Positions 428 through 63,208 of a stretch of 64,000 bases of DNA are shown piece after piece. Positions within the stretch are counted from its first letter, which is position 1, and each line of letters begins with the position of its first letter. The DNA lies in the IMG/VR virus record IMGVR_UViG_3300045934_000106, positions 3,919-67,918 of that record; one strand, given 5' to 3'. A program made the position numbers and the translations under genes. Source of the DNA: a virus. Under the pieces are notes generated by a model that was given only the letters and a program-made list of their open reading frames with translations, searched no databases and had not been told where the DNA came from.

Positions 428-3304
428 TTAGGCCGCCTTCCGTGCGCGGTGTCCGAGGTTGGCCGCCAGCAGCGCAGCCGCGACGTGCGGCGGCACGGAG
501 TTGCCACACATCCGAGTCTGCGCCTTCTTCGAGAGCTTCGTGGGCACGGGCAAGCCGAGGTCAGTGACCGTGACGACGTGTTCGATTTCGTAGTCGTGCT
601 CAACGACTAGGCGGATCAAGAGTGAGCTCGCGCTTGACGTTGGCGCGAGAGTGGACCCACCGATGGCATCGAGCACAAAGGAGCACAAGGTTGTCCAGTG
701 CGAGGCGAAGCTCTGGGAAGGTTGCCCATCCGCCGATATGGTGCACTGCGTATCCGGGACCGCGGCGAACCCGGTCCAGGCATCGCCGGCAACAGCCACC
801 GTCTCGCTGGAAGACGGCGCGGCAGGCCCTGAGCCATGGCTTTGATGCGTAGAAAGCAAGCTGCTCTGGCGTACAGCCGCCCTTCCAGTTTGGCGCGCGT
901 GGACCGGTAAAGAATGCTCGCGAGCAAGCATTCGAGCAAAATCGCCGATGTCGGTAGGTAGGGGAAACGAGACGCCCTCGGCCGCAGAACTCGCAGACGA
1001 GGGTGACTTTTCTGGACTGCGTAGCACCAGAACGTGCTGCCCGCAGTCGATACGCGCATTCACGACTACAGGTGCGACGTTGTGGGCTTGAGGCTCGGAC
1101 GAGATGTGGCCGCGCGCAGACTTCGCACGGTCTCGACTCGCGAGGGTTTGGCGGCCGCCCGCCGCCTGGGTTGCGTGGTCGCGCCATACCTGAATCTCCG
1201 CCTCGGTCTTGAAACTAGGAAAACCCTGGCAGCGGAACAGCTCGCGCGGGGTCAGCATGCGCATCCCGATGTCGACGATGGCGTATTCCTCGCCGGCAAT
1301 CGTGACCGTGACCAGCCCGAAGCGCTCCTTGGTGGTGAGCGTGTCCACCGGCGCGTCGAGCGGACGGCCGGAGACGTTGGTCCCGAAGTACTTGACCAGG
1401 AAGGCCGTGACGAGCGCCTTGTTCTCGCGGCAGACGATGGTGTCGACCGGGCGCTGGAGCTTCTGACCGGTGGCCTCGTGACCGCCGTTGTGCTTCGCCA
1501 GGAACGCGGCGACGAGCCCGAAGCGGTTGGAGGTATGCAGGCTGAAGTCGATGCACTCGGCCGCCGTGCGATAGGGCTGGCGCTTCGGGCCGTGCGTGGG
1601 TTTCGGCCACACGATCGGCTGACCATCGAAGCGGACAATGACGAACAATCGCTTGCGGCGCGTCGGGGCGCCGTGCTCGTCAGCCACCAGCTCGCGATAC
1701 TCCACCACGCCGCCGAGGTTCTGGAGACGCGACACCCAGCGACGGAAACTCTGCCCCTTCTTCGCGGCGTTGGGTCGCCCGTCCTTGCCGAGCGGACACC
1801 AATCGCGGAACTCTTCCACGTTCTCCATGAACAGCATGTCGGGCGGGCGTCCGGTCGCTTTCTTCAGCTCGACGACGCAGCGGACCAGCTCCCACGCGAG
1901 CCCACGAACGCGACGCGCGCGGTTGCGGTCGCGGAACGGTCGACCGCCGCGCGCCTTCGAGTGATAGGTGCAGTTGTGCACGATGATGCCGTCCGCGACG
2001 AAGCTCTCGTCTTGGGCGACGCTCAGGTTGTAGACCGTGAACAACTCGGAGCCGGTATGGATGCGTTCGCGGATGGGCGCCCACAGCAGGCCGTCCTCGA
2101 CCGCAGTGTGCGCGTGCGATTCGGTGATGCTCTCGCGCCATTTCACCGACCAGGCTGGACGCACGTTGACGCGCCGCCCAGCGATCTCGTCGGGCTGATT
2201 GGTCCTCAGCACCACGTGCGCGGCGTGACCCAGCGAGGCGACCAGCGCCTTCAGCCCGAACGCGAGCGCCTTGGAAACGGTCGTCGCGATTGTCAGCGGC
2301 GTGCCGACGCCGTGCGCTACGCACCCGTCTCCGGACAGGTAGCCATCCAGAAACCACTGACGCGACTCGACCGACAGCCCAAGCAACCACCCAGGGATGG
2401 TTTTCTCTGCAGCACCGTGGCCGAAGTGCTCACGGAGCCATTCAACTAATCCCCGATGGCTCGTCGAGAACTGATAGGCGGTCCCTGTCTCCCGCTCAGT
2501 CCACGCCAACTCCCCTGACCGGCTGCGTGTGCCAGCGCGTGGCCACTGCGCCAGCGACTCACGGAGGTCGTCCGCCTCGTGGCGTCCGCAGGTGAGGACG
2601 AGTTCTGCGCGCACGTCTGTGAGCCGCGTCCAGCCGTCGGCGACGTAGCGACCGGCAAGCCAAAGCAGTTTGAAGTCGACCTGTAGTTCACGCTCGCGAT
2701 GCACCGGCACCGCAGGCGCAGCCGCCCCTGGGAATGTCGTCGGCGACGCCCAGTACTGGCCGCGCTCAAGGCTCTTCGCAGGCGCCCAGTACGCCTGGCT
2801 CAGGCGCCTCGCCATTCCGGCGCCGCTCGTGCGGTGCTTCACGAGGAAGGGATGCTCTCCACTGACGAACAGGCCGGGGTGACCGAGCCCACGCACCTGG
2901 AGTAGCGGGCGCTCAGTGCTCATCGTGTTCGTGACGCGGCGCCACCGTTGCTCGTGGGTCAGCACTTCCTCGCCAATTTCGATTTCCTCGATCGGCACGT
3001 AGCCGCGTCGCGCGAGCACCATCGTGCCGGCCGGGAAACAGTCAGGCGAGAACCAGGCGAAGCGGCAGTGCTTGCCCGTGAGCAACGTGCCGTAGTCGAC
3101 CGAGCGGATGTTGGTCTGCACGTGGCGCGTCTTCGGATGGTTCGCGGCGTGCATCGCGAGCGCTTCCGCGTCGTGGTTGATGGCCACGTCGGGCGAGCGG
3201 CCGGTGGCCCACTCGATCCCGACCGAGGCGCCACCACCACCCGCGAACCCGTCGATACAGCCTTCGTCGTCGTAGAGCCGGACTTGCGGAACGCGGGGCT
3301 TCAT
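428..3304 (-). CDS. dcm: DNA (cytosine-5) methyltransferase containing an intein and a second ~206-codon insertion
   Basis: Motif I FAGGGG, AINHD, motif IV SPD|C split by the intein, motif VI ENVEEF, motif VIII PTRRKRLF, C-terminal LTPRELFRCQGFP and RMCGNSVPP. Confidence 0.93.
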   Translation of the reverse strand: MKPRVPQVRLYDDEGCIDGFAGGGGASVGIEWATGRSPDVAINHDAEALAMHAANHPKTRHVQTNIRSVDYGTLLTGKHCRFAWFSPDCFPAGTMVLARRGYVPIEEIEIGEEVLTHEQRWRRVTNTMSTERPLLQVRGLGHPGLFVSGEHPFLVKHRTSGAGMARRLSQAYWAPAKSLERGQYWASPTTFPGAAAPAVPVHRERELQVDFKLLWLAGRYVADGWTRLTDVRAELVLTCGRHEADDLRESLAQWPRAGTRSRSGELAWTERETGTAYQFSTSHRGLVEWLREHFGHGAAEKTIPGWLLGLSVESRQWFLDGYLSGDGCVAHGVGTPLTIATTVSKALAFGLKALVASLGHAAHVVLRTNQPDEIAGRRVNVRPAWSVKWRESITESHAHTAVEDGLLWAPIRERIHTGSELFTVYNLSVAQDESFVADGIIVHNCTYHSKARGGRPFRDRNRARRVRGLAWELVRCVVELKKATGRPPDMLFMENVEEFRDWCPLGKDGRPNAAKKGQSFRRWVSRLQNLGGVVEYRELVADEHGAPTRRKRLFVIVRFDGQPIVWPKPTHGPKRQPYRTAAECIDFSLHTSNRFGLVAAFLAKHNGGHEATGQKLQRPVDTIVCRENKALVTAFLVKYFGTNVSGRPLDAPVDTLTTKERFGLVTVTIAGEEYAIVDIGMRMLTPRELFRCQGFPSFKTEAEIQVWRDHATQAAGGRQTLASRDRAKSARGHISSEPQAHNVAPVVVNARIDCGQHVLVLRSPEKSPSSASSAAEGVSFPLPTDIGDFARMLAREHSLPVHARQTGRAAVRQSSLLSTHQSHGSGPAAPSSSETVAVAGDAWTGFAAVPDTQCTISADGQPSQSFASHWTTLCSFVLDAIGGSTLAPTSSASSLLIRLVVEHDYEIEHVVTVTDLGLPVPTKLSKKAQTRMCGNSVPPHVAAALLAANLGHRARKAA
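600..1187 (-). CDS. HNH endonuclease with zinc-finger repeats, nested out of frame inside dcm
   Basis: CxxC pairs, FCSNAC, NWKGG, VFQRDGGCCRRC, VHHI...NLVLLCARCHRWVH; own ATG with a GGAG RBS. Confidence 0.88.
   Translation of the reverse strand: MARPRNPGGGRPPNPRESRPCEVCARPHLVRASSPQRRTCSRECAYRLRAARSGATQSRKVTLVCEFCGRGRLVSPTYRHRRFCSNACSRAFFTGPRAPNWKGGCTPEQLAFYASKPWLRACRAVFQRDGGCCRRCLDRVRRGPGYAVHHIGGWATFPELRLALDNLVLLCARCHRWVHSRANVKRELTLDPPSR
1973..3040 (-). mobile_element. intein with in-frame LAGLIDADG homing endonuclease, inserted just before the catalytic Cys of the methyltransferase
   Basis: Starts CFPAGTMV; block B SGEHPF; LAGLIDADG motifs LAGRYVADG and FLDGYLSGDG; ends VYNLSVAQDESFVADGIIVHN followed by C; splicing restores SPDCTYHSKA. 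Confidence 0.93.
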
Positions 3305-3756
3305 CGGACCAGCTCCTGAATCTTGTCGGCGATCCGCTCGACGTCGGTCGACGTGCTCGGGATGCCGAGGTTGGCCGATTGCATGACGTCACCGAGGCCG
3401 GATACGAGGTCGGCACCCCATGTCGGATTGGCCGTCCCGATGTTCCAGTCGCGCCCGGCGCCGGCAGACACCTGCAGGAACCCCGGGTATTCGACCGTCG
3501 CGGTGATGCCGCGCTTCGCGAGCGCGGCGACCACGGTCTGAAGGTTGACGGATGGCGCGGGTGTGCCGGTACTGAGCACCGGTTCATCGGCCGCCACGCC
3601 CATGTGCGACGTGCCGATCACGAACGTGCACAGGTTTTCCACAGCCTTGAGTTCGGCCAGGAGTTCGGCGTGCTCGTCAGCGCCGTCCGACGTCTGAATC
3701 ACGACGTGGGCCCGGCTGACGATGTCTTGCAACTGGCGGACAGTGAGCGTGTTCAT
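3301..3756 (-). CDS. hypothetical protein
   Basis: 151-aa ORF; its stop overlaps the dcm start (ATGA). Confidence 0.7.
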   Translation of the reverse strand: MNTLTVRQLQDIVSRAHVVIQTSDGADEHAELLAELKAVENLCTFVIGTSHMGVAADEPVLSTGTPAPSVNLQTVVAALAKRGITATVEYPGFLQVSAGAGRDWNIGTANPTWGADLVSGLGDVMQSANLGIPSTSTDVERIADKIQELVR

Positions 3757-3761
3757 GTGAT

Positions 3762-4022
3762 CTACTCCCAGCCGCGCAAGAAGCCGGCGATGTCGGGGCC
3801 CCAGACGTACCGCTGCGTGACGGTGCGACGGCGCGTGGTGAGTCCGACCTTGGCGCGTTCGAGCGGCGCTGACTCACGCACGAGCATGAGATTGACGAGC
3901 ACCGGGGGGATGCCCTCGGCGATGAGCGCGTCCGGCGTATACGCCTCGCGGTGACGCGCGATGAAGGCCAGCACGTTCCGCACGGCCGGCGTCAAGAGCG
4001 GTTGCACTTCTGAGTGTCTCAT
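3762..4022 (-). CDS. hypothetical protein, probably leaderless, first gene of the dcm operon
   Basis: ATG lies 7 nt downstream of a predicted extended -10 box. Confidence 0.65.
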   Translation of the reverse strand: MRHSEVQPLLTPAVRNVLAFIARHREAYTPDALIAEGIPPVLVNLMLVRESAPLERAKVGLTTRRRTVTQRYVWGPDIAGFLRGWE

Positions 4023-4082
4023 GTTGCCAACGGTAACACGGCAGTGTTGCCATTGTCAACTCTACCTGTTGTCATCGGCAAC
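4023..4082. promoter_or_regulatory. divergent promoter region with three palindromic operators (GTTGYC-N3-GKYAAC)
   Basis: GTTGCC-AAC-GGTAAC at 4023-4037, GTTGCC-ATT-GTCAAC at 4046-4060, GTTGTC-ATC-GGCAAC at 4068-4082; leftward -35 TTGACA (4059-4054) and TGnTACCGT -10 (4035-4030). Confidence 0.8.
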
Positions 4083-4096
4083 TCGGGTATGAGAGA

Positions 4097-4330
4097 ATGG
4101 CGGCTATGACGCTGACGCCCTGGACTCAAGCGCAGTGGACCGCCGCCGCGAAAGCGCTCACGCCGAAACGCCTGCGGGCTCGGCGACTACAGCGCCTGCT
4201 CACCCTCGAACAGGTCGGCGACGCGATCGGGGTGAAGCGGTCCACGGTCTCACGGTGGGAAAACGGGGACCGCGACATTCCGCCCCTGGCCCTGCGGTCC
4301 CTGGTGCAGCTACTCGACATCGACATCTAG
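4097..4330 (+). CDS. XRE-family helix-turn-helix regulator
   Basis: LRARRLQRLLTLEQVGDAIGVKRSTVSRWENG. Confidence 0.88.
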   Translation: MAAMTLTPWTQAQWTAAAKALTPKRLRARRLQRLLTLEQVGDAIGVKRSTVSRWENGDRDIPPLALRSLVQLLDIDI

Positions 4331-4797
4331 CGTTCACACGTGCTCCCTAAGCACTCGAAGAACCTCGGCGACCCCGGGATCACGACGCCCCGCATCACCG
4401 TGAGGTCGCCTCCGGGCGGTTCCGCGTTCAACTGTCGGCGCGGTCCGCCTGATCCGGTAATCCCACGACTCGGCCAGATCGCGTGCTCGCTGTTCTCCTT
4501 GAACGTCTTGAGGCGCACCGGCATCGGTGGACAGTCATTGCCGCAACCCACCGTCAGCGGAACGCGCATCCAGAGGTTGACTTCCTCCCCACGGTCGCCA
4601 TAGAGGATGATGACCGCGTTCCCGGTGTCGCCCGTTTGGTCGATCCCGACGCGATCGATGTAGTCGACGCTCCAGCCCGGTTGCACCTCCACGCTGTTGC
4701 GGCCGGCCTGGAACGCGATGATCACGAACGCCGCGAGCGCGACCACGTCGAGAACGATGCGGACCCCTGTTGTTCTCCCTTGCGTTACCTCGTTCAT
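4327..4797 (-). CDS. hypothetical membrane-anchored protein
   Basis: Start MNEVT coupled (ATGA) to the upstream stop; hydrophobic segment IVLDVVALAAFVIIAF. Confidence 0.6.
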   Translation of the reverse strand: MNEVTQGRTTGVRIVLDVVALAAFVIIAFQAGRNSVEVQPGWSVDYIDRVGIDQTGDTGNAVIILYGDRGEEVNLWMRVPLTVGCGNDCPPMPVRLKTFKENSEHAIWPSRGITGSGGPRRQLNAEPPGGDLTVMRGVVIPGSPRFFECLGSTCER

Positions 4798-5240
4798 GAC
4801 TGCTCCTGTGCGTGCTGGTTCTGTGCGTACTCCGGGTGCTTGTCCTTCATGTGCGCGGCGAGCTGCTTGAATGAGCGATGACAGCACGGACAGACGCCGT
4901 GCGCGATGCGCTGCTCCAGACGCTGCTTAGCGGCCTTGGCTTTGCCCGCTTGGATGGCGGCACCTTTCGCGCGTGACTCGGCCCACTGCCGGCTGCTGCG
5001 CTCAGACTCGACGGCTTGGCGCTCGCGCGCGAGCTGCTGTTCTAGCTCGGCGATCCGCTTCTCTTCCTTCGTCTTGTCGAAATAGCCCTGCGAATGCCCG
5101 CTTGGGCAGTAGAACGGCTGATGGTCTTTGCGTCGCTGGTTATCGAAGTCGTTCGGAACGGCGAATATGATCCCGCATCGACAGCACTCCATCACCCACA
5201 GGGCCGGCATCCCGGCCACGTTCGTGATCGTCGATCCCAT
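4794..5240 (-). CDS. zinc-finger/coiled-coil phage protein
   Basis: CCRCGIIF, FYCPSGH, a coiled coil, then CPCC...HMKDKHP; GGAGG RBS. Confidence 0.75.
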   Translation of the reverse strand: MGSTITNVAGMPALWVMECCRCGIIFAVPNDFDNQRRKDHQPFYCPSGHSQGYFDKTKEEKRIAELEQQLARERQAVESERSSRQWAESRAKGAAIQAGKAKAAKQRLEQRIAHGVCPCCHRSFKQLAAHMKDKHPEYAQNQHAQEQS

Positions 5241-5244
5241 GTCC

Positions 5245-5454
5245 CTAGCCTCCAGTCTCCATTTCAAATAAGTTCTGCTGCCCCTTCGGCGGCGCGGCCG
5301 GCACGAGCACCCTGGCGCCCTGGTCGTCACGCAAGCACGGCGGGCCCGGCGAGCTACCCTCCATCCGGATCAACCCCCTGGCGAACGCTTCCATCGTCAG
5401 CTCGCCACGCAGCACGCGATCACGAAACAGGTTCACGCCCGGCTTGTGACTCAC
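5245..5454 (-). CDS. hypothetical protein
   Basis: Fills a tightly packed operon. Confidence 0.45.
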   Translation of the reverse strand: MSHKPGVNLFRDRVLRGELTMEAFARGLIRMEGSSPGPPCLRDDQGARVLVPAAPPKGQQNLFEMETGG

Positions 5455-5460
5455 TGTCGG

Positions 5461-5700
5461 TCACGCCCGATCCTTTCCGCAGCGCGTGCACTGCCAGCGA
5501 CACCGCCGCGTGCGTGGTGGCGCCGACATCAGCGCCACGTAGTGGCCCAACGCCCGGCAGCGCCGCACCCAGGCCGGCGTCTGCCGTTCGATCTCCTCGG
5601 CCCGGCGGTGAAACTCTTCCGCCAGGGCCTCCGGGACGTGGACGGGCTCGTCTTCGTAGTCGTACGCGTCGAGCGCGACGCGGCTCCCGTGGTGACTCAT
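5461..5700 (-). CDS. hypothetical protein with C-terminal CxxC
   Basis: Start coupled to the upstream stop; CRALGH...WQCTRCG. Confidence 0.55.
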   Translation of the reverse strand: MSHHGSRVALDAYDYEDEPVHVPEALAEEFHRRAEEIERQTPAWVRRCRALGHYVALMSAPPRTRRCRWQCTRCGKDRA

Positions 5701-6041
5701 GGCTGGAACCCGCGTTTCGGGCCTTCGGTGTTCGCCCACTCGCGCCAGCTCGTGGCATCGCGCGCCACGTCTGCCGAAGGCGGATCACTGGCCAGGCGAT
5801 ACTCCGCCGTGACGTAGCGACCGCCGCCGAAGCCGTTACGCCCGCGCGAGCAGATATGTACCCATCCGGGCTCCGCCGTGACCTGATACACCGCGATCGT
5901 CTCGTCCGAGCGCGGCGTGTCGGTGAGCTGGTCGAGCGCGTCCCACGTGCCGTCCTTCGCCTGCACCGCCCGTAAGAAGAACGGGGCACGCTTGAGCAGC
6001 AGCGTCACGCCTTCGGCTGGTCCGTCCAAGAAGCGCGTCAT
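5697..6041 (-). CDS. hypothetical protein
   Basis: MTRFLDGPAEG start with ATGA overlap. Confidence 0.7.
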   Translation of the reverse strand: MTRFLDGPAEGVTLLLKRAPFFLRAVQAKDGTWDALDQLTDTPRSDETIAVYQVTAEPGWVHICSRGRNGFGGGRYVTAEYRLASDPPSADVARDATSWREWANTEGPKRGFQP

Positions 6042-6304
6042 TTCCGTCTGAACTCGTCGGCCGCCTGGCAGGTGGCGAAGTGCGACTCCGCGTTCGAGAA
6101 GTAGGCGATGACGCGGTTGGTGCCGGCCTCGCTCTCGCTCTTGCGCGGCACGGCGCCTTTGTCCATCGGCATGCGCTTGCCGTTCAAGGTCTCGTAGTAG
6201 TCGATCTCCGCGCCGCACTTCGTCGACTTGCAGGTGCCAGGCTCTTTGCTGTCCTCGTAGAGCCGAATGAGCACTTCCTTCTTCTGGGGGGTTGCGGTCG
6301 TCAT
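6038..6304 (-). CDS. zinc-binding hypothetical protein
   Basis: CKSTKCGAEI...GKRMPMD...SHFATC; GAGGAGG RBS. Confidence 0.75.
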   Translation of the reverse strand: MTTATPQKKEVLIRLYEDSKEPGTCKSTKCGAEIDYYETLNGKRMPMDKGAVPRKSESEAGTNRVIAYFSNAESHFATCQAADEFRRK

Positions 6305-7953: not shown

Positions 7954-8555
7954 GAGGCAAACGCCTTTCGTTGGGCTTCACGCCTCGACATGCCTTTCGC
8001 AATCAGCTCATTCATGCGGGCGGTGCGTTCCTGCTGACCCCATGGGTCAGGGTTTTGATGACGGCGCCGTCGGGAAACCCCCTTCTCTGAAGGGGGTATG
8101 GGGGTAGTACCTGATCCGCAGATCGCAGACGAAGACGAAGAGCTTTTTTTGGGTTCTGGTTTGGGTTTCGCCAAAGGAAACCCAGAAATAACGCCTGGGT
8201 TTTTCCGAGGCCGTCCACCGAGCGCCCCGTTCTTCCTTTGTTTTCTACGAAATAGCGTCTGCTTCCGTCGCTCAATTTCCATGCGACGGTTTCTGTACTC
8301 TCCGTTGGAGTTTTCAAACTTGTGCTTAATGCGTGACCAGACGGACACCGCGAGTGCACCATCTGGGATCATCATTAGACGAGCTATAAGCTCATCGTCA
8401 TCGCCAGGGAGAAAGCCGCGATCCCACTGCTGAAACAGCATGGTCCAGTAGGCGCCGCGCTCTTCCAGTGTCATCGTCAGCATGCCCGTCAATGCGTCCT
8501 TGGCGTAGAGTTGGAACGCCGGCGGCTTCCCTTTTTTCTTCCGCTTCTTCGCCAA
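7950..8555 (-). CDS. YdaU/DUF1376-family phage replication protein
   Basis: PAFQLYAKD...MTLEERGAYWTML...WDRGFLP...NRRMEIE...NGALGGRPRK. Confidence 0.82.
   Translation of the reverse strand: MAKKRKKKGKPPAFQLYAKDALTGMLTMTLEERGAYWTMLFQQWDRGFLPGDDDELIARLMMIPDGALAVSVWSRIKHKFENSNGEYRNRRMEIERRKQTLFRRKQRKNGALGGRPRKNPGVISGFPLAKPKPEPKKSSSSSSAICGSGTTPIPPSEKGVSRRRRHQNPDPWGQQERTARMNELIAKGMSRREAQRKAFAS
8145..8206. repeat. TGGGTT/AACCCA repeats, possible replication-origin iterons inside the initiator gene
   Basis: Several TGGGTT(T) copies plus an inverted AAACCCA in an AT-richer stretch; position analogous to the lambda O origin. Confidence 0.35.
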
Positions 8556-8825
8556 CGTGTGTGTCGTCCTTATGAGTTAGGTGCGACTGCCGTGAGCACG
8601 CGCCGTCGCCGCGCGTCTTACTGTCTAGTTGGCCGCCACTACCTCGAACCGGGCTCACGTCGCTGATCACGAACTCGCTTCATCGACCCCCCACTGACCA
8701 GCGTGCAGGGGCTTCCGCCGATTACTGGCCGCCGCGCGAATCTCAATCGAGCCGGTTTCTCTCCCACCGGCAAAGTCACGCCTCGCTCGCCCGGCGTTCA
8801 GCAGCGCGCGTGGTGTCTTCTAGTA

Positions 8826-8978
8826 CTAGGTGCCGGCGCCGACCTCGGCGGCCTGCTCCTGCGTGGCGCCATCACCCTGATCGGATGTGGCCGGCGTGGC
8901 GTCGGTGGTCGCGGGCGGTGCCGTGGTGTTCTGCGGCTCGCTCGTCTCAGTGATCGTGTTGCTCTGTTCGTCGTTCAT
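8826..8978 (-). CDS. small acidic, low-complexity protein (50 aa)
   Basis: GGAGG RBS; MNDEQSNTITETSEPQ... Confidence 0.5.
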   Translation of the reverse strand: MNDEQSNTITETSEPQNTTAPPATTDATPATSDQGDGATQEQAAEVGAGT

Positions 8979-9420
8979 ACGGGGGCGTCCTCCGTGCTAC
9001 GTCTCCGCGTTCATCGCGAAGCCGATGTTCATGTGACTGGTTGGCGTTCCCGAACCGGCGCTCCGTGTGCGAGGCGAGCGCGGTCCACTTGAACGCGAGC
9101 GGTTTATTGGCGTCGGTGCCGATGATGGCGATGCGCTTGTTCTTGAGCAGCCCATTGCAATCGCGGCACACGTGCGTCACGTTGGCCGACGTGTGCTTCA
9201 CAGCGCGTTTCGCCGTCGAGCGCGGCTGCATATGGTCGTGCGTGCAGCCGCCGCCGAGTTCGCAGCGCCGGCCGCAACAGCGACAGGTGCGCGTGCCGTC
9301 CCGCAGATCGACGACGGCGTAGGTCGCGCGCATCTCGCGGTCCTCGTCACGCTTCCGCTGCCGCTTAGTGAAGTGCAGCCGGACCGGTTTCGGACAGGCC
9401 ACACTGCCTTTGCCGGGCAT
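8947..9420 (-). CDS. HNH endonuclease (free-standing)
   Basis: RDGTRTCRCCG...THDHMQPRS...NVTHVCRDCN. Confidence 0.75.
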   Translation of the reverse strand: MPGKGSVACPKPVRLHFTKRQRKRDEDREMRATYAVVDLRDGTRTCRCCGRRCELGGGCTHDHMQPRSTAKRAVKHTSANVTHVCRDCNGLLKNKRIAIIGTDANKPLAFKWTALASHTERRFGNANQSHEHRLRDERGDVARRTPPYERRTEQHDH

Positions 9421-53909: not shown

Positions 53910-53928
53910 TCGCGAGACTCCTGCCCCC

Positions 53929-54990: not shown

Positions 54991-55019
54991 GGTCTGCTCT
55001 CCTCGAAAATGAGCGGGCA

Positions 55020-55515: not shown

Positions 55516-55519
55516 GACC

Positions 55520-57976: not shown

Positions 57977-58271
57977 TCGTCATCGCTTCCTGGCCCGGCG
58001 GCGGTGACGGCATCTCGGTCATTTGCATCGCGCGGAAGGCGCGATGAATAGCGGGTTCGGAGGCCGAACGTGGGGCGGTGGCTACTCCGGAGACTTGTTT
58101 GACTTCGAGCAGACGGTCGAGGGTGCGTTCTTCGCGCTCACGCCAGTACTGCGCCTCGTATTTCAGGTTCGCCACGTCGCGCTCGAGGACCTCGCAGCGT
58201 GCGCACGGCGGCGGCGACGCGACGCCGCGCAAGAGACGCCAGGCGAGCGAGAGGCGCGCGACCCACGTCAT
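57957..58271 (-). CDS. hypothetical coiled-coil protein
   Basis: CARCEVLERDVANL; coupled to neighbours. Confidence 0.65.
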   Translation of the reverse strand: MTWVARLSLAWRLLRGVASPPPCARCEVLERDVANLKYEAQYWREREERTLDRLLEVKQVSGVATAPRSASEPAIHRAFRAMQMTEMPSPPPGQEAMTSARTAS

Positions 58272-58468
58272 CGCGGGGTCAGCACCTTGTCGATGAGCAC
58301 GTTACCGTCACGGAACAGCGAGGCCACGAGGATGCGACGCTGGCCGCCGGCCGTGCGGACGTATTCGACCTTGTTGTCATCGAGCCACTTGTACATCGTG
58401 CGACGGCACACCCCGGCGATGACGCAGGCTTGATTGATGTTCACGTGCTGACGCCGCTCGTCCATCAC
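58268..58468 (-). CDS. excisionase-family (HTH_17/MerR-like) DNA-binding protein
   Basis: NINQACVIAGVCRRTMYKWLDDNKVEYVRTAGGQRRI. Confidence 0.85.
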   Translation of the reverse strand: MMDERRQHVNINQACVIAGVCRRTMYKWLDDNKVEYVRTAGGQRRILVASLFRDGNVLIDKVLTPR

Positions 58469-58507
58469 AGACTCCGTTGTAGCACTCCGACCGCGAAACC
58501 GCCCAGA

Positions 58508-59008
58508 TCAGGCCGGGTCGGGGATGAACTCGTTGCCCCGGACCTGTCCGGACAACTGTCCGGTCTGGTTGATGCTCGAGATGCGCAGGTGCACCGGCCC
58601 GCCGTCACGCGGCACCTGAACGACGGTCGGCAGCTTCATCGGGGTCGCCGAGCTCGCGAGGGCACGCAGGAACATTTCGAGGCGTGGGGCGTACGACAGT
58701 TCCGGCAGCTTCGGCTCGGGGTTCGGTGCGGGCGCGTCGACGAGCGGGGTATAGCCGCTCTCGAACGCCTCGGCCGGACTGAACGACAAATAGCCGTCCG
58801 CGTAGGCCACGAAGTAGCCGCCCGGTTGCGGCGTGTGCTTCTTCATGTAGGCGGCGTCGACGTCGGCCTGGAAGGCGATTTCTGCCGCCCCGATCGGCGC
58901 GAGCGTGAGGCGCCCGGCGCCGTCCTGCTCGATCACCTCGACCGCCACGATCTTCGCGGCGTGGACGACCTTGTGTGACTGGTACTGCGGTAACAGCTTG
59001 ACGTTCAT
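58508..59008 (-). CDS. conserved phage protein (GYxVxYxDGYxSxSP family)
   Basis: LPQYQSHKVVHAAKI...PQPGGYFVAYADGYLSFSPAEAFESGYT. Confidence 0.75.
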   Translation of the reverse strand: MNVKLLPQYQSHKVVHAAKIVAVEVIEQDGAGRLTLAPIGAAEIAFQADVDAAYMKKHTPQPGGYFVAYADGYLSFSPAEAFESGYTPLVDAPAPNPEPKLPELSYAPRLEMFLRALASSATPMKLPTVVQVPRDGGPVHLRISSINQTGQLSGQVRGNEFIPDPA

Positions 59009-59301
59009 CTCGGCGGCGGCTCCTTGGCCGGCGGCGGTGGCGCGGGCTTTGGTGCAGGTGGCGGCGCGGGCGTCGCGGCGATCACCGTGCGCGCGTTGTC
59101 GCACACCGCCCGATCCAGCGTGATACGAGACTGCGCGTTGTCCTTGTAGACGAGGCGCAGATAGCACGTGCCCGCTTCATCGTAGAGCACGGCCGTTTGC
59201 AGGTAGGCATTGAGGCTCGTCGTCGACGGCCGTGTGTAGTAGCCGACACTGGCGCAGCCACACAGCGACGCCGTCGCGATGAGCAGGGCCATCGTCTTCA
59301 C
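59005..59301 (-). CDS. lipoprotein with Pro-rich tail
   Basis: Lipobox SLCGC after a hydrophobic stretch; C-terminal PAPPPAPKPAPPP. Confidence 0.65.
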   Translation of the reverse strand: MKTMALLIATASLCGCASVGYYTRPSTTSLNAYLQTAVLYDEAGTCYLRLVYKDNAQSRITLDRAVCDNARTVIAATPAPPPAPKPAPPPPAKEPPPR

Positions 59302-59302
59302 G

Positions 59303-59527
59303 TTAGAACTGGCCCTTGAGCGCAATCGAGCCGTTGGCGATGTGCACGCACTCGCGCAGCTTGCGCACGGCGACGGTCTGGTCCGCAGACTGCGGCGTGT
59401 TCGCGACGAGGATCTTCGCAAACACTTTGGCGCCCGCGCGAATGGCCTCGTATTTCGGGATCTGGTCCGGTGTCGGAGCGTGATACGTGAACAGGTCCTC
59501 AATCGCGTCGTCGTCGAGCTTCTTCAT
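59303..59527 (-). CDS. Acb2/Tad1-like helical-hairpin protein (candidate immune-signal sponge)
   Basis: FTYHAPTPDQIPKYEAIR...TPQSADQTVAVRKLRECVHIANGSIA. Confidence 0.65.
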   Translation of the reverse strand: MKKLDDDAIEDLFTYHAPTPDQIPKYEAIRAGAKVFAKILVANTPQSADQTVAVRKLRECVHIANGSIALKGQF

Positions 59528-59721
59528 TGGCTCCTTTCACGCTTGCACTCAGGGCAAGCGATCTCGCCGTCGCCGTGCATGCACTCGCCTGCGCCGCGAC
59601 ACATATCGTCGATGCAGACGACGATGAAGCCCGCGCCCATGCAGGCGTTACAGCCGTCGTCGTATGGGTATTCGTCGTCGTGGCCGTACTCGTCTTCGTC
59701 GAAGTCGCCGCGCATAGTCAT
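59524..59721 (-). CDS. small Cys-rich zinc-finger protein
   Basis: CNACMGAG...CIDDMC...CMHGDG...CPEC. Confidence 0.7.
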   Translation of the reverse strand: MTMRGDFDEDEYGHDDEYPYDDGCNACMGAGFIVVCIDDMCRGAGECMHGDGEIACPECKRERSQ

Positions 59722-59733
59722 CGACCTTTCGTC

Positions 59734-60015
59734 TTACGCCAGGTTCGCCAGTACTGACGGTGCTCGGCGCCGCGGCTGGCGCCCGAAATAGGTCTCGAAG
59801 CCATACCGGCGTTCGGTGCCGCAGACCTCGCAGACCGCGAGGTCATGGCCGGAGGCGCGATGGGGCGTGTGCTGCAACGCGCGCAGGCGCACGACGAGAT
59901 CGTCCGGCACTGGGTAGACCGTGGCCACGGACGATTCATGCTCGCGATACTCGGTGACGGCCGCGTCGACGTCAGCGACCCTCGGGTTACACCGTCCTTC
60001 GCAGATCAGCTCCAT
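59734..60015 (-). CDS. hypothetical zinc-binding protein
   Basis: LICEGRCN...HTPH...CEVCGTERRYG. Confidence 0.65.
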   Translation of the reverse strand: MELICEGRCNPRVADVDAAVTEYREHESSVATVYPVPDDLVVRLRALQHTPHRASGHDLAVCEVCGTERRYGFETYFGRQPRRRAPSVLANLA

Positions 60016-60030
60016 CGTGGCTCCAAGGAT

Positions 60031-60480
60031 TTACTTCGGCCATCCGAACAGGGCCCACCGCAGGCGGCGGACGAACGACATCCCGCGAAAGTCGATGAGC
60101 GCGGCGACCGCCAGGTGATGCGCGCCGAGCGTGGGCACGTCGTCCCGCATCTTGTGATACGCGGCCGCCGCCGACTCGTTGAACGCCACGACCTGGTTCT
60201 CGGCCCGCGTCACGCTCTCGCTGATCACGTGCTGACGCTGCTCGAGGGCCATCACCATCTTGCCTTGCGCGTCGAGGCGGCGCGTCAGCTCCGCTCGCGT
60301 CGCTTCCAGCGTGCGCTCGAACTCCTGCACCTGCTTGGCGACGCGTTGGGACACGTCCGTCGCGTGATTGGCGCTGGTAATGCACTCGTTCGTGCGGAGG
60401 ACGGCTTCGTCGTGGATACGGGCGGCCTCTTCGACCACGTCAGCGACGGTCGCGAAGTTCCGCTTTTGTTCTCGGCCCAT
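60031..60480 (-). CDS. coiled-coil hypothetical protein
   Basis: Heptad-rich; ends FVRRLRWALFG. Confidence 0.65.
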   Translation of the reverse strand: MGREQKRNFATVADVVEEAARIHDEAVLRTNECITSANHATDVSQRVAKQVQEFERTLEATRAELTRRLDAQGKMVMALEQRQHVISESVTRAENQVVAFNESAAAAYHKMRDDVPTLGAHHLAVAALIDFRGMSFVRRLRWALFGWPK

Positions 60481-60643
60481 AGAGTGGTCCCGGCGTCACG
60501 GGGATCGAGCGCTCTACCGGCTCCCCGGATCGTGGGTGCCGGGCTTCCACCTTCACCCACAATCCGGCTCCCGGGGATGCAGTCGCTGCTAGAGGCTCAT
60601 AACGAGCACCAGCCTGACAAAAGGCTGCGGTGGAGCGCAAGAG

Positions 60644-63208
60644 CTAGCGGCGGACCAGACTCCCCATCACGCCGCCCGGGCGTTTCTTGTGGCGCTTGTC
60701 GAGCGTTTCGTAGTGCTGCCGCTCGAGCGCCGGCAGGTGCGCGTAGGGGTCGACGATGAGCGTGCGGTCTTGGAACGGACGCGCCTCGAAGAACCGGCCG
60801 ATGTCCTCGTAGCAGTTATGAACCAGGAGGCCGTTGGCGAAGAACTCGTGCGCGTCTTCGACGGTTAGGTCATACACCGCGGCGCGCCCGCTTGGCCGCA
60901 CGGTAGTAACACTTCGGGTCACCGCAGAAGCGCTTGTTCGGTCGCTTCGTGGCGAATCGAGCGCCGCACCCATCGCACCGGACAAAGCGCGTCGGCTTCG
61001 ACTCTCGCTGTCGTTCCTCGAACGAACGATTGATGCACTTGGCGGAACAATAATTGACGTCGCGCAGCTGGTCACCGGCGATGTCAGCGGGTCCCCCACA
61101 CATCGCGCAGGTCGTGAGGACACGAGGGATTGCCAGCCGCGCTTCAGAAGCGTATCCAGCGTTCTCGCGACGCGCAGCGCGCTGGCGAGGAGTCGGATTC
61201 CTACTATGGAGCGAGAGATGCTGCTTTCGAGGCAAGAGTTCGAGATTGTCGGGATGGTTGTTTGCACGGTTCCCATCCTTGTGGTGCACATGACAGCCAA
61301 ACGGCAGACGCCCGTGCGTGTCTCGCCACACGCGGCGGTGAAGGCGACCGTAGCCACGGCGCGCAAAGTAGCGACCGCATTTGTAATAGACCACGTCCCG
61401 CCACACCTGCGCTGTCTCTGACAGCACGATTGGAGCTTCGACCACAAGGAAACCTCTGTCGCGTAATACGGTATGAAGTCGTTGGATATTTCGTCGACAC
61501 GGATGAATCCACGCGTTTTGTCAAAGATTCCATGGTTCCCAGTGGCGCGCACGGCGCCGCCAGGTGTCACGACCTCGAACACCTCGGCATCTGGCGATGT
61601 CTGCCAGGCACGCAACACCCGCCGATAGCCTCGGCGCGTCAGGAGCCTGTCACCGGCCAGAATCCGCTCGATCGGCGTCAGTCCTTCGTCGGTGTGCACC
61701 AGCGTGCCCTCGGCGATGCAGTGGTTCTCGGAGTCTTCGTCCTCCACGTCGGGATCTTCCTCGTCCCATGGGATGTCCGGGACCGTGCGGATCGCCTCCG
61801 GGCACGCAGTCGTGATCGTCCAGTTCGGCAACCCGTCGACGTTGGTCTGCAGGGCATCGAGCCAGCGCTGCGGCCGCGACTCCCGGGCCGGCCGGCCCGC
61901 GGCACCGAGCCGCACGTTGCAGAGGTGCAGCAGCTCGTCGCAGTAGACCTCGTAGATCGATTTCGCGCGGCCGAGTTCCTCCCGTGACGCCTTCATCGAG
62001 GGGTCGATCACGATCCACTCGGGCTTGTAGTTCCGGTGTTCGAGCAGCTGGCGAATCATCTGCGCCTGTTCCACGTCGCGCTTGCGGGGCATGTAGAACT
62101 CGAAGAAGGTCCGCACGTGGCCACCGGGCAGGCCGGCATGCAGGTGAAACGACCACGGCACGCCATAGCCGTAGTCGACCGAGCCCCAGATCGGGGCGCC
62201 TGCCGGCGGCTTCCAATGCGCGTTGGGGATCACGTGCCAGGGGATCACCTGACCGACCGACAGCGCCGCCGAGAGCGCCAGCAGATCCTCGTCGGTCTCG
62301 TGGATCATCTTCTTCTCGCGCCAGAACGGGCCGACGATCATCTGATCGTAGGCGTCCCAATCGCCCTCCGCCAGTTGCTTCGCCTTGTCGCCCCCCAGCG
62401 CGTAGACCTTGGCCAGGTAGTGCGGATCGGCGTTGGCCAGCGCCATGTTGTCGTGGAACCACGCCGGGATGAACTGCCGCGTGGGCACGAACTCTGGTTT
62501 GCTCGGATCGCCGGGGAGCGGCAACGGGCGCCACACCTCGAAGGGCTGCGGCGGCAGGCGCCCCGGGCCAAGCTCCTCGGGCCGAGGCCGCAAGAACCAG
62601 CGTTTGAGCCATCCATGGCCGACACCGCCCGGGTTCGACATCAGGCGGATGCGCTTGCGCATGCCGAGACGCGCCGAGCGCACGCGCGTCATCAGGTATT
62701 TCACCTGGAACTCGGTGAAGTGGGACGCCTCGTCGATGAACAGCGCCACCCACTGCGCCGACTGGTAGCTGTAGACATCTTTCTCGTGCTGTGCGTGGCA
62801 GAACCAGAGCTGTGAGCCGTTCCAGAACGTCGCCACCAAATCCGAGGCATTGAACTTGGCGATGTAATCCGGCACGAGCAGCAGGAAGCGGCTGATGATC
62901 TCCTGCTTCAGTTCCTTCAACTTGCGGCGGAAGAACGCGACTTTGACGTTCGGGTTCTCGATGCAGATCGTGATCGCCTCGACCAGGCCGAACTCGGACT
63001 TGCCGCCACCGACGGCGCCGCCGTAGAACAGGACCTCGGCGACGGAGGCGTGCGCGAACGCCTGTTTCGGCTGCGGAACGCAGCGATCACGGCGGGGATG
63101 GCAGGGGGGATCGTGCACGCACTCGCCGGACGGATCGGTGTAGCCCCAATTCCAGCCGGCGCGCAGGGACGCGAGGCGGCGCGCTTCCTTCGAGCGCTTA
63201 CCGCTCAT
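60644..63208 (-). CDS. terL: terminase large subunit with intein
   Basis: YGGAVGGGKS Walker A, FIDEASHF Walker B, SNPGGVGHGWLKRWF, nuclease VDYG...IDPS, and ENH|CYED split by the intein. Confidence 0.95.
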   Translation of the reverse strand: MSGKRSKEARRLASLRAGWNWGYTDPSGECVHDPPCHPRRDRCVPQPKQAFAHASVAEVLFYGGAVGGGKSEFGLVEAITICIENPNVKVAFFRRKLKELKQEIISRFLLLVPDYIAKFNASDLVATFWNGSQLWFCHAQHEKDVYSYQSAQWVALFIDEASHFTEFQVKYLMTRVRSARLGMRKRIRLMSNPGGVGHGWLKRWFLRPRPEELGPGRLPPQPFEVWRPLPLPGDPSKPEFVPTRQFIPAWFHDNMALANADPHYLAKVYALGGDKAKQLAEGDWDAYDQMIVGPFWREKKMIHETDEDLLALSAALSVGQVIPWHVIPNAHWKPPAGAPIWGSVDYGYGVPWSFHLHAGLPGGHVRTFFEFYMPRKRDVEQAQMIRQLLEHRNYKPEWIVIDPSMKASREELGRAKSIYEVYCDELLHLCNVRLGAAGRPARESRPQRWLDALQTNVDGLPNWTITTACPEAIRTVPDIPWDEEDPDVEDEDSENHCIAEGTLVHTDEGLTPIERILAGDRLLTRRGYRRVLRAWQTSPDAEVFEVVTPGGAVRATGNHGIFDKTRGFIRVDEISNDFIPYYATEVSLWSKLQSCCQRQRRCGGTWSITNAVATLRAVATVAFTAACGETRTGVCRLAVMCTTRMGTVQTTIPTISNSCLESSISRSIVGIRLLASALRVARTLDTLLKRGWQSLVSSRPARCVGDPLTSPVTSCATSIIVPPSASIVRSRNDSESRSRRALSGAMGAALDSPRSDRTSASAVTRSVTTVRPSGRAAVYDLTVEDAHEFFANGLLVHNCYEDIGRFFEARPFQDRTLIVDPYAHLPALERQHYETLDKRHKKRPGGVMGSLVRR
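60815..61720 (-). mobile_element. intein in the terminase nuclease domain, with no in-frame endonuclease
   Basis: Starts CIAEGTLVHTDEG; block B RATGNHGIF; ends VYDLTVEDAHEFFANGLLVHN followed by C. Confidence 0.93.
60870..61445 (-). CDS. HNH endonuclease nested out of frame inside the terminase intein
   Basis: RLHRRVW...HVHHKDGNRANNHPDNLELL...H, then CAMC/YCSAKC and CDGC/FCGDPKC; GAGGT RBS before the GTG. Confidence 0.9.
   Translation of the reverse strand: MVEAPIVLSETAQVWRDVVYYKCGRYFARRGYGRLHRRVWRDTHGRLPFGCHVHHKDGNRANNHPDNLELLPRKQHLSLHSRNPTPRQRAARRENAGYASEARLAIPRVLTTCAMCGGPADIAGDQLRDVNYCSAKCINRSFEERQRESKPTRFVRCDGCGARFATKRPNKRFCGDPKCYYRAAKRARRGV

What the first reader, a model, noticed from the sequence alone, without database searches (positions are those of the whole stretch)
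600..61445. Both nested HNH genes use the same relative frame and architecture
Seen: 3304-1187 and 63208-61445 both leave remainder 2 when divided by 3. Both nested genes are about 190-195 aa, zinc-finger-rich, preceded by an RBS embedded in host codons, and look less GC-rich than their flanks. They are different HNH types: C-terminal HNH in one, N-terminal HNH_3-like in the other. In this offset any NTG-A, NTA-A or NTA-G codon junction in the HNH would create a host stop, and none occurs. Inference: this is a repeated, selected strategy (a class of frame-preserving overprinted homing endonucleases) rather than a one-off accident.
Basis: partly seen in the sequence, partly recalled or inferred. 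Interest (0 to 1): 0.8.

Follow-up and report, generated by a model that had tools for sequence, protein, structure and literature searches.

The report
Hidden HNH genes inside phage genes
A soil phage carries two homing-endonuclease genes written in a shifted reading frame, one inside its terminase intein and one inside its DNA methyltransferase gene, while the host frame stays readable; this trick of selfish DNA was first described in 2025, and these are new examples.

Summary
ORF 600..1187(-) is a 195-aa PF01844 HNH. It lies inside a C5 DNA methyltransferase gene (428..3304), in a 618-nt insertion just after motif IX (QGFP). ORF 60870..61445(-) is a 191-aa PF13392 HNH_3. It lies inside the terminase large subunit (TerL) intein (60815..61720), exactly where an intein normally carries its endonuclease domain. 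Both start at offset 2, and the host frame has no stop across either.

In the window alone this is weak evidence: synonymous shuffles keep the host frame open in 45% and 14% of trials. Relatives decide it. The same two architectures recur at the same sites in distant phages, including 30-37% GC genomes where chance gives P=0.002-0.008. Substitutions in the overlap fall on HNH codon position 3.

The "same relative frame" rule is not general. Four other nested HNHs (Lamina13, Optimus, L018, L026) use the other offset, also with selected stop avoidance (P<=0.001).

The kind is already published: the ShiLan domain (Genes 2025) and out-of-frame endonucleases in actinophage inteins (bioRxiv 2025). 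These are new members, in a new host gene and site (C5 methyltransferase) and with a new endonuclease family in TerL inteins.

The parts
428..3304 (-). Host gene 1: C5 cytosine DNA methyltransferase, 958 aa as encoded. It carries two intervening elements.
   Evidence: PF00145, E 2.2e-15. The alignment with 25 relatives shows motifs up to QGFP and GNSV.
1973..3040 (-). In-frame LAGLIDADG intein (aa 89-444) at the motif IV catalytic Cys of the methyltransferase. It is a canonical intein and a separate element from the HNH insertion.
   Evidence: Hint_2, LAGLIDADG_3 and Intein_splicing matches. The sequence reads C...VHN|C.
599..1216 (-). 618-nt (206-codon) insertion right after the QGFP codons of motif IX, read through in the host frame. 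The borders are ambiguous by 3 nt (1213..596 fits equally well).
   Evidence: QGFP to GNSV is 241 aa here, against 20-36 aa in relatives. 79 of 80 relatives are uninterrupted.
600..1187 (-). HNH1: a 195-aa HNH endonuclease gene with zinc fingers, at offset 2 to the host. Its stop codon lies within the last 4 nt of the insertion.
   Evidence: PF01844, E 4.3e-9. PDB 5h0m, E 2.1e-6. Relatives of 39-57% identity are nested at the same site.
1196..1204 (-). Shine-Dalgarno-like GAGGCGGAG; the GGAG ends 8 nt before ATG 1187.
   Evidence: Read from the sequence. Function is inferred.
60644..63208 (-). Host gene 2: terminase large subunit, 854 aa as encoded.
   Evidence: PF04466 and PF03237. tblastn hits to phage TerL genes.
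60815..61720 (-). Intein in TerL (aa 497-798). It has the N- and C-terminal splicing blocks of a mini-intein, separated by about 175 residues of unrecognisable host-frame sequence.
   Evidence: PF14890, E 2.8e-9. Query residues 19-78 and 256-302 align to residues 27-84 and 92-137 of the Spl DnaX mini-intein 7cfv. The sequence reads CIAEG...LLVHN|C.
60870..61445 (-). HNH2: a 191-aa HNH_3 endonuclease gene, at offset 2 to the host. It fills the intein's endonuclease slot, starts right after the N-terminal Hint block, and overlaps the start of the C-terminal splicing region (from aa ~776; my reading of the sequence) by about 14 nt.
   Evidence: PF13392, E 6.7e-15. 69% aa identity to the nested HNH of relative L126, with substitutions concentrated at its own codon position 3.
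61453..61457 (-). Shine-Dalgarno-like AGAGG, 7 nt before GTG 61445.
   Evidence: Read from the sequence. Function is inferred.

Best explanation
Both are free-standing-type HNH homing endonuclease genes that have settled inside a host gene. Each lies on the same strand but in a shifted frame, in a form that lets ribosomes read the host frame straight through.

TerL. The HNH_3 gene occupies the endonuclease slot of a mini-intein. The host-frame reading of it is a meaningless linker of about 175 aa, which is removed with the intein by protein splicing. The essential terminase is therefore unharmed.

C5 methyltransferase. A minimal cassette sits in the loop between motifs IX and X. It consists of a 26-29 nt leader with a Shine-Dalgarno-like motif, the 588-nt HNH ORF, and 1-4 nt of tail, 618 nt in all (3 x 206). 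No intron and no intein is present. The methyltransferase is most likely made with a 206-aa looped-out insert.

In both cases the HNH protein is made from its own internal start. It presumably cuts insertion-free alleles at the conserved target (the TerL intein site; methyltransferase motif IX), and repair copies the element in.

Selection then acts on two layers of the same DNA. The amino-acid sequence is selected in the HNH frame. In the host frame only the absence of stops is selected.

Shown: the anatomy, the homology, recurrence at the same sites, stop avoidance beyond chance in relatives, and selection on the HNH frame.
Inferred: internal translation initiation, cleavage specificity, homing, protein splicing, and a methyltransferase that works with the insert.
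For: Anatomy.

TerL-intein family. HNH_3 is nested with host frame = HNH+1 in 7 of 7 distinct loci:
- the window;
- L126;
- L008 and L010;
- Tetrasphaera phage TJE1;
- Clostridium phages phiCDHM19 and phiCD119.
All sit at the same TerL site. A Vibrio phage has the split-intein form, with the HNH gene between the two halves.

Methyltransferase family. PF01844 HNH is nested just after QGFP (QTVP in L131) in 5 of 5 distinct C5 methyltransferases: the window, L041, L127, L128 and L131. Their GC ranges from 0.36 to 0.65.

Sporadic distribution. 79 of 80 closest methyltransferase relatives lack the insertion.

Stop avoidance (synonymous shuffles). P(host frame open) is 0.002 for phiCDHM19, 0.0075 for L041 and 0.016 for L010. 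Free-standing relatives have 2-12 stops in that frame.

Which frame is selected.
- Window against L126: differences per site at host codon positions 1, 2, 3 are 0.19/0.14/0.42 in the N-extein and 0.19/0.53/0.24 in the overlap. Host position 2 is HNH position 3.
- HNH aa identity is 69%, against 43% for the host frame over the same DNA.
- Alignment z-scores are 14-34 in the HNH frame and 2.6-9 in the host frame.

No intron. No Rfam family matches at gathering score in the whole window, and no intron family appears even at E<=10 around either site.

Reads. One RNA-library contig (339-790, 0 differences) runs unbroken across the 3' border of the methyltransferase insertion. This is weak, because DNA can be present in an RNA library.

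Fold. In the AF2 model of the methyltransferase with its insert, core blocks score pLDDT 78-95, the insert 23-54 and the motif X helices 60-82.

Same kind in print: PMC11855218 and bioRxiv 10.1101/2025.01.02.630785.
Against: - In the window itself the open host frames are not statistically remarkable (45% and 14% of shuffles).
- No expression, splicing, cleavage or methylation data exist for this phage.
- Shine-Dalgarno-like motifs are absent upstream of several relatives' HNH starts (L008, L041, TJE1), so internal initiation is not obviously conserved.
- The AF2 model is also poor in the methyltransferase's target-recognition region (pLDDT 34-48). Low confidence in the insert is therefore not specific to it.
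- L131's nested HNH has an internal stop while its host frame stays open. This shows that such HNHs can be dead passengers.
- The two complete relatives of this phage lack the methyltransferase altogether, so no empty site was seen in a close relative.
- No read joint that skips either element was seen in the 4 of 4 runs laid.
Confidence: 0.8

Rival explanations
1. HNH2 is not a homing enzyme but a terminase-associated HNH, a packaging cofactor that merely ended up encoded within terL.
For: Free-standing relatives of P0004 sit immediately beside terL in 5 phages that I inspected: SN1, FBPa53, Poludnitsa, CL2 and Shemara. From memory, HNH proteins next to terminase genes are known packaging factors; PMC11855218 section 4.2 mentions HNHs aiding terminases.
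Against: It sits exactly in the endonuclease slot of an intein. An in-frame HNH_3 intein exists in a DNA polymerase, which is not a packaging context (L011). Free-standing homing genes also typically sit next to the gene they target. The family is sporadic among TerL genes: of 987 phage records with TerL matches, none covers 80% or more of the query.
Confidence: 0.1
2. The nested HNH genes of this particular phage are no longer expressed or active. They are decaying passengers, and only selection on the host genes keeps the host frames open.
For: L131 shows this state: one internal stop in the HNH and an open host frame of 766 aa at GC 0.37. The homing-endonuclease life cycle predicts decay after fixation (preprint section 15).
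Against: Both window ORFs are intact, with the catalytic HNH motifs present. HNH2 shows purifying selection against L126. HNH1 keeps 39-57% identity with intact nested relatives.
Confidence: 0.07
3. The methyltransferase insertion is removed at the RNA level by an unrecognised self-splicing intron. The open host frame is then irrelevant.
For: HNH ORFs are common in phage group I introns. The authors of the ShiLan paper considered this too.
Against: No intron family is found by Rfam, even at E<=10. Only about 30 nt of the insertion lie outside the ORF. The insertion length is a multiple of 3. The host frame stays open in 5 of 5 family members, including two at GC 0.36-0.37. An RNA-library contig crosses the 3' border unspliced (weak).
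Confidence: 0.03
4. This is coincidence in GC-rich DNA. Long alternative ORFs are common at 65% GC, so the arrangement has no meaning.
For: Many long overlapping ORFs are listed in the window. Shuffles keep the host frame open in 45% and 14% of trials.
Against: Both frames have strong family matches. The same architecture occurs at 30-37% GC. Only 0.5% of 994 windows in ordinary genes of this phage are open in that frame.
Confidence: 0.01

Closest known systems
ShiLan domain: an out-of-frame HNH insertion in mycobacteriophage N6 DNA methylases (Arsenault, Gosselin, Gogarten, Genes 2025, PMC11855218). I read the abstract, sections 3 and 4, the figure legends and passages.
   Same: It is an insertion in a phage DNA methylase, absent from homologues. 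The host frame has no stop. A 195-aa zinc-finger HNH lies in the 'third frame'. Its start is a few nt into the insertion and its stop within the last 4 nt. No intron or intein signature is found. The host-frame part is predicted to loop out. The same methylase also carries a separate intein.
   Different: Here the host is a C5 methyltransferase (PF00145), not N6 (PF01555). The site is motif IX (QGFP). The HNH is only distantly related: P0002 finds no mycobacteriophage at E<=1e-5, and its relative P0006 reaches nested mycobacteriophage HNHs at 24.7% identity, E 2e-4. A Shine-Dalgarno-like motif is present here, whereas the paper reports none. Family members occur in AT-rich, non-actinobacterial-type phage contigs.
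[quoted passage not shown] I read the abstract, section 15 and passages; the supplements were not visible.
   Same: The intein splicing blocks lie in the host frame. The endonuclease is encoded on the same strand in frame 3 within the endonuclease slot. TerL is among the hosts. The host-frame linker is unrecognisable.
   Different: The endonuclease here is PF13392 HNH_3, not IPR004211. The family reaches Clostridium phages (GC 0.30) and has a split-intein member in Vibrio phages. Their supplementary tables, which I could not see, may list related cases.
Fractured genes: split inteins with a free-standing endonuclease gene between the halves (Dassa et al. 2009, PMC2677866). I saw only the listing and the start of the abstract.
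   Same: A free-standing-type endonuclease gene is lodged in the middle of an intein coding region. The Vibrio phage 1.245.O relative has exactly this form at the same TerL site.
   Different: In the window the intein is contiguous, because the host frame has no stop across the endonuclease gene.
[quoted passage not shown]
   Same: The slot in the intein is the same and the endonuclease superfamily is the same. L011 is an in-frame HNH_3 intein in a DNA polymerase.
   Different: Here the HNH is out of frame and must be translated separately.
Homing endonuclease genes embedded in phage genes that split the host gene (mobE in nrdA of phage Aeh1, Gibb and Edgell 2007). This is cited in the preprint; I did not read the paper.
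   Same: A free-standing HNH gene lies inside a host coding region.
   Different: From memory, in that case the host gene is cut into two ORFs. Here the host frame is continuous.

Membership tests
Out-of-frame HNH insertion element in a phage DNA methylase (ShiLan-domain kind) | Insertion within the methylase ORF that is absent from homologous methylases | tested here: met
   79 of 80 closest IMG/VR relatives are uninterrupted at the site; 1 (L068) is undetermined.
Out-of-frame HNH insertion element in a phage DNA methylase (ShiLan-domain kind) | No stop when read in the host frame; length a multiple of three | tested here: met
   0 stops. 618 nt = 206 codons.
Out-of-frame HNH insertion element in a phage DNA methylase (ShiLan-domain kind) | An alternative same-strand frame encodes an HNH endonuclease that fills nearly the whole insertion | tested here: met
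   PF01844, E 4.3e-9. The ORF takes 588 of 618 nt; the leader is 26-29 nt and the tail 1-4 nt.
Out-of-frame HNH insertion element in a phage DNA methylase (ShiLan-domain kind) | No intron and no intein signatures | tested here: met
   Rfam finds none. Pfam Hint matches lie only in the separate intein at aa 89-444.
Out-of-frame HNH insertion element in a phage DNA methylase (ShiLan-domain kind) | Homology to the ShiLan element itself (N6 methylase host, ShiLan HNH) | tested here: not met
   The host is PF00145 (C5). P0002 has no mycobacteriophage hit at E<=1e-5. It works like ShiLan but is a different lineage.
Out-of-frame HNH insertion element in a phage DNA methylase (ShiLan-domain kind) | Active homing (cleavage of empty alleles and copying-in) | not testable with these tools
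   Only indirect evidence: the same site in 5 divergent C5 methyltransferases and a sporadic distribution.
Intein with an out-of-frame homing endonuclease (non-canonical intein) | Hint splicing blocks in the host frame, with Cys1, terminal His-Asn and a +1 Cys | tested here: met
   PF14890, E 2.8e-9. Mini-intein alignments. CIAEG...LLVHN|C.
Intein with an out-of-frame homing endonuclease (non-canonical intein) | Endonuclease encoded on the same strand in another frame, between the N- and C-terminal splicing blocks | tested here: met
   HNH_3 at 60870..61445, offset 2. It lies between aa ~585 and ~776 of the host.
Intein with an out-of-frame homing endonuclease (non-canonical intein) | Endonuclease VII-like (IPR004211) type, as in the preprint | tested here: not met
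   Pfam gives only PF13392 HNH_3. The endonuclease family differs; the architecture is the same.
Intein with an out-of-frame homing endonuclease (non-canonical intein) | Protein splicing occurs | not testable with these tools
   Inferred, because TerL is essential and the record is a CheckV-complete phage genome.
Group I intron carrying an HNH ORF | Ribozyme core detectable; no need for an open host frame | tested here: not met
   No Rfam intron hit at E<=10. The host frame is kept open under selection in relatives.
Fractured gene / split intein with a free-standing endonuclease gene | Intein halves on separate ORFs | tested here: not met
   The window's TerL is one ORF of 854 aa. The feature is met only in the Vibrio relative.

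The most novel reading that the evidence does not exclude
Translated-through, out-of-frame endonuclease insertion may be a general third way, beside introns and inteins, for a homing gene to live inside a coding sequence. It is spread well beyond actinophages, reaching Clostridium phages and AT-rich environmental phages.

In this reading the endonuclease's own codon choice is shaped by selection to keep the host frame free of stops. Which of the two possible offsets is used is then set by the endonuclease's codon composition. Low or middle GC3 forces host = HNH+1. High GC3 also allows host = HNH+2.

The TerL family would further document a continuum for one endonuclease lineage at one locus: free-standing beside terL, then between split-intein halves, then overprinted in a contiguous intein, then in-frame intein domain.
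Probability: 0.55. Interest if true: 0.6.

Novelty: new member of a known kind. Interest (0 to 1): 0.45.

Why it matters
Gene callers keep one ORF per stretch of DNA, so these endonucleases stay invisible. The host proteins are filed as oversized methyltransferases or as terminases with a "decaying" intein.

The window adds two things to a class that is only about a year old:
- a C5-methyltransferase motif IX lineage, with 5 members found here;
- an HNH_3 lineage in TerL inteins, which reaches Clostridium phages.

It also supplies tests that I did not find in the passages I read of the two papers:
- quantitative evidence that the host frame is kept open by selection (P down to 0.002 at 30% GC);
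- codon-position evidence that the HNH frame is the one coding for a protein;
- evidence that both offsets occur.

The methyltransferase case is a natural experiment on how large a meaningless insert an enzyme loop can tolerate. The TerL case bears on the idea that inteins acquire their endonucleases by invasion of free-standing genes.

Tried and rejected
Searches that gave nothing or little:
- Near-identity DNA search of both host genes against 50,697 phage records: no match.
- Rfam at gathering score over the whole window, and at E<=10 around both sites: nothing relevant.
- Profile-pattern search for HNH1 relatives in 185,579 prokaryote genomes: 62 pattern hits, none confirmed. This does not show absence.
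- A search for this methyltransferase and for HNH1 in the two complete relatives G001 and G002: no match. No empty site in a close relative could therefore be shown.
- TerL N-extein relatives in IMG/VR: only 2 loci, one a fragment of nearly the same sequence (99%). Intein-free close alleles were therefore not sampled.

Sequencing runs. Contigs only, at depth of about 2-10. There were no joints skipping either element in 4 of 4 runs. The lower word shares turned out to reflect fragmentary cover, not alternative alleles. Uncovered parts say nothing.

Structure. The AF2 model of the methyltransferase with its insert has mean pLDDT 52 and is poor in the target-recognition region too. It is weak support only. 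I ran no fold search on it.

Readings considered and rejected:
- Double ribosomal frameshifting that would make an in-frame HNH intein. It needs two precise shifts, and an independent start with a Shine-Dalgarno-like motif exists.
- Compensating sequencing indels. The arrangement is conserved in 7 distinct TerL loci.

Not pursued: the CCTAGT hexamer near both borders of the methyltransferase insertion was noted but not followed up. I did not verify the frame of the preprint's endonuclease VII-like cases myself.


Full report
ANATOMY

The window is 64 kb of a 67,918-base IMG/VR virus record rated 100% complete by CheckV. Its GC is about 65%, and it has no near-identical phage in GenBank.

Host gene 1 (428..3304, minus strand, 958 aa) is a C5 cytosine DNA methyltransferase (PF00145). 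It carries two separate intervening elements.
- The first is a canonical in-frame LAGLIDADG intein at the motif IV cysteine (aa 89-444).
- The second is a stretch of 206 codons between motif IX (QGFP, aa 693-696) and the sequence HDYEIEH...GNSV (motif X). It matches nothing in the host frame.

An alignment with 25 uninterrupted relatives places this insertion at 1216..599, with a 3-nt ambiguity. The ORF 600..1187 (195 aa, PF01844 HNH at its C-terminus, zinc-finger pairs) fills 588 of the 618 nt. It begins 26-29 nt into the insertion, behind a GGAG with 8-nt spacing. Its TGA lies within the last four bases.

Host gene 2 (60644..63208, minus strand, 854 aa) is the terminase large subunit (TerL). 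It has an intein at aa 497-798, reading CIAEG...LLVHN|C. The intein's N- and C-terminal splicing regions align to solved mini-inteins, in which only a few residues separate them. Here about 175 residues do. The ORF 60870..61445 (191 aa, PF13392 HNH_3 near its N-terminus) fills that gap. It starts 7 nt after an AGAGG.

Both nested ORFs start at offset 2 from the host start codon.

CHANCE WITHIN THE WINDOW

The host frame has 0 stops across each nested ORF. The third same-strand frame has 4 and 6. Three nulls give different answers.
- Synonymous-codon shuffles of each HNH keep the host frame open in 45% (HNH1) and 14% (HNH2) of 4000 trials. They keep the other frame open in 0.05% or less.
- Keeping the protein but drawing codons from this phage's own usage gives 9% and 15%.
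- In 17 ordinary genes of the phage, only 0.5% of 994 windows of 191 codons are open in that frame (mean 4.4 stops), and 10.9% in the other frame.

HNH1 also uses CTG and GTG far less than the phage's genes do. Leu is 3 of 15 against 50%, and Val is 2 of 11 against 42%. None of the 6 (HNH1) or 12 (HNH2) listed NTG codons is followed by A.

So the window alone is suggestive, not decisive.

RELATIVES OF THE TerL ELEMENT

tblastn with HNH2 against phage records and IMG/VR found homologues lying under terL. In 7 of 7 distinct loci the HNH_3 ORF lies inside a TerL intein at the same TerL site, with host frame = HNH+1 and no host-frame stop. These loci are:
- the window (plus a fragment of nearly the same sequence: L007, 100% over the HNH; L125, 99% over the TerL stretch);
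- L126, a complete 65.7-kb relative;
- L008 and L010;
- Tetrasphaera phage TJE1;
- Clostridium phages phiCDHM19 and phiCD119 (there terL is annotated in pieces upstream).

phiCDHM19 has 30% GC, and the shuffle gives P=0.002. L010 gives 0.016. TJE1, L126 and L008 give 0.25, 0.14 and 0.57.

Other states of the same lineage were also found.
- Vibrio phage 1.245.O has the same HNH in the same phase, but with 14 host-frame stops. Its terL is split into an N-extein plus intein-N ORF and an intein-C plus C-extein ORF, which is a fractured gene.
- Free-standing relatives sit directly beside terL in SN1, FBPa53, Poludnitsa, CL2 and Shemara.
- L011 is an in-frame HNH_3 intein in a DNA polymerase.

Of the 33 IMG/VR loci returned for HNH2, 5 are nested in a longer same-strand ORF.

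RELATIVES OF THE METHYLTRANSFERASE ELEMENT

HNH1 relatives of 39-57% identity are nested in 5 of 5 distinct C5 methyltransferases just after QGFP (QTVP in L131), all with host frame = HNH+1. These are the window, L041 (= L040), L127, L128 (= L129) and L131. The methyltransferases belong to different subfamilies, and GC ranges from 0.36 to 0.65. L041 gives P=0.0075 for the open host frame. L127 and L128 give 0.14 and 0.25.

L131 (GC 0.37) also has a LAGLIDADG intein at the PCQ motif. Its HNH carries one internal stop, while its host frame stays open for 766 aa. Of the 14 loci from the profile search, 6 are nested and 8 are free-standing or fragments.

Among the 80 closest relatives of the window's methyltransferase, 79 are uninterrupted at the site (QGFP to GNSV is 20-36 aa, against 241 here). 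One, L068, ends early and is undetermined. The two complete relatives of this phage lack the gene.

WHICH FRAME CODES

In window against L126, differences per site at host codon positions 1, 2 and 3 are:
- 0.19/0.14/0.42 in the N-extein;
- 0.29/0.22/0.51 in the intein N-domain;
- 0.19/0.53/0.24 across the overlap.

Host position 2 is HNH position 3. HNH identity is 69%, against 43% for the host-frame peptide over the same DNA. Across four pairs, the HNH frame aligns with z of 14-34 and the host frame with z of 2.6-9. The HNH is therefore a protein under purifying selection. The host-frame reading is a spacer whose only visible constraint is the absence of stops.

THE FRAME RULE

The rule is not general. 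Four further nested HNHs have host = HNH+2:
- L018, an HNH_3 in a DUF5131 gene;
- L026, an HNH_3 in an N6 methyltransferase;
- mycobacteriophages Lamina13 and Optimus, in N6 methyltransferases. In Lamina13 GenBank annotates both genes, gp61 and gp62.

In each of the four, 5-6 host-frame stops are expected and 0 are found, with P<=0.001. Mantra, a ShiLan-type element, has offset 2 with P=0.043.

The tally is 13 of 17 distinct nested loci with offset 2 and 4 with offset 1. Counted as lineages, it is three against three, plus the preprint's "frame 3" cases, which I did not verify.

The AT-rich members are all offset 2, where the other frame would carry about 28 stops. The offset-1 members have HNH GC3 of 0.69-0.76. 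In the window, both HNHs have GC3 of 0.60-0.67, which makes offset 2 the only workable phase. The shared offset is thus a consequence of codon composition. It is not a class-defining strategy.

NOT AN INTRON

- Rfam finds no intron family.
- Only about 30 nt of the methyltransferase insertion lie outside the ORF.
- The insertion length is a multiple of 3.
- The host frame is conserved open in all family members.
- In 4 of 4 soil runs laid (three listed as DNA, one RNA library; contigs only) there is no joint skipping either element.
- One RNA-library contig (339-790, no differences) crosses the 3' border of the insertion unbroken. DNA in that library cannot be excluded.

An AF2 model of the post-intein methyltransferase gives pLDDT 78-95 for the catalytic core, 23-54 for the insert and 60-82 for the motif X helices. 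The target-recognition region is also poor.

PRIOR ART

Searches found the kind already in print.
- Arsenault, Gosselin and Gogarten (Genes 2025, PMC11855218; I read the abstract, sections 3 and 4, the legends and passages) describe the ShiLan domain. It is a 195-aa out-of-frame HNH in the third frame of mycobacteriophage N6 methylases. The start is 18 bp in, the stop lies within the last four bases, there is no intron or intein, and the host-frame part is predicted to loop out.
- Their preprint (10.1101/2025.01.02.630785; I read the abstract, section 15 and passages) reports actinophage inteins, including TerL inteins, with an endonuclease VII-like gene in frame 3. It proposes invasion of inteins by free-standing endonuclease genes.
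- A genome announcement mentions an out-of-frame HNH in Applejack's methylase (PMC12613952; I saw only the start of the abstract in the listing).

In what I read, neither paper mentions C5 methyltransferases ("cytosine" has 0 occurrences), AT-rich hosts, a statistical test of stop avoidance, or the second offset.

VERDICT

It is not new as a kind. The window holds two new members:
- a C5-methyltransferase motif IX lineage, ShiLan-like in design but a different host gene and HNH lineage;
- an HNH_3 lineage overprinted in TerL inteins.

The claimed frame rule fails as a general law. It is explained by codon composition.

Noticed in passing
window 1973..3040 (-): The same C5 methyltransferase also carries a canonical in-frame LAGLIDADG intein at the motif IV catalytic cysteine (aa 89-444). 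L131 has the same pair of elements (intein at PCQ, nested HNH after motif IX) in a very different, 37% GC methyltransferase.
   Followed up: partly
window 8947..9420 (-): A third, free-standing 157-aa ORF with a weak HNH match (21.5 bits in the own-genome search; no Pfam hit at E<=0.001 for the whole protein). It lies beside the lowest-GC kilobase of the window (8001-9000, GC 0.598). It has 3 and 6 stops in its two other same-strand frames, so it is not nested.
   Followed up: partly
L002 (Vibrio phage 1.245.O) 1..3374: terL is split by a split intein, with the HNH_3 gene between the halves. This is a fractured gene at the same TerL site as the window's contiguous intein.
   Followed up: partly
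L018 2190..3803 and L026 1959..3881: HNH_3 genes nested out of frame, at the other offset, in a DUF5131 gene and in an N6 methyltransferase. In L026 and in Lamina13 the insertion appears to split a CxC...CxxC zinc ribbon of the methyltransferase.
   Followed up: partly
L044 (mycobacteriophage Mantra gp64) 931..3255: Besides the ShiLan-type HNH, the host frame holds a LAGLIDADG-like segment near the N-terminus with no obvious Hint blocks. There are also two copies of an EP(V/I)VVARKP stretch, one just before the HNH overlap and one after it.
   Followed up: no
L068 2180..3550: A relative of the window's methyltransferase whose ORF stops before the IVDIGMRML / motif IX region. This may be another interruption, or a break in the contig.
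   Followed up: no
L147, L148, L004, L145 (phages SN1, FBPa53, Poludnitsa, CL2): Free-standing relatives of HNH2 sit immediately downstream of terL, before the next (portal or structural-protein) gene. The lineage appears tied to the terL locus in all its forms.
   Followed up: partly
window 596..620 and 1211..1222 (-): The hexamer CCTAGT occurs near both borders of the methyltransferase insertion. Its meaning is unknown; it may be chance.
   Followed up: no
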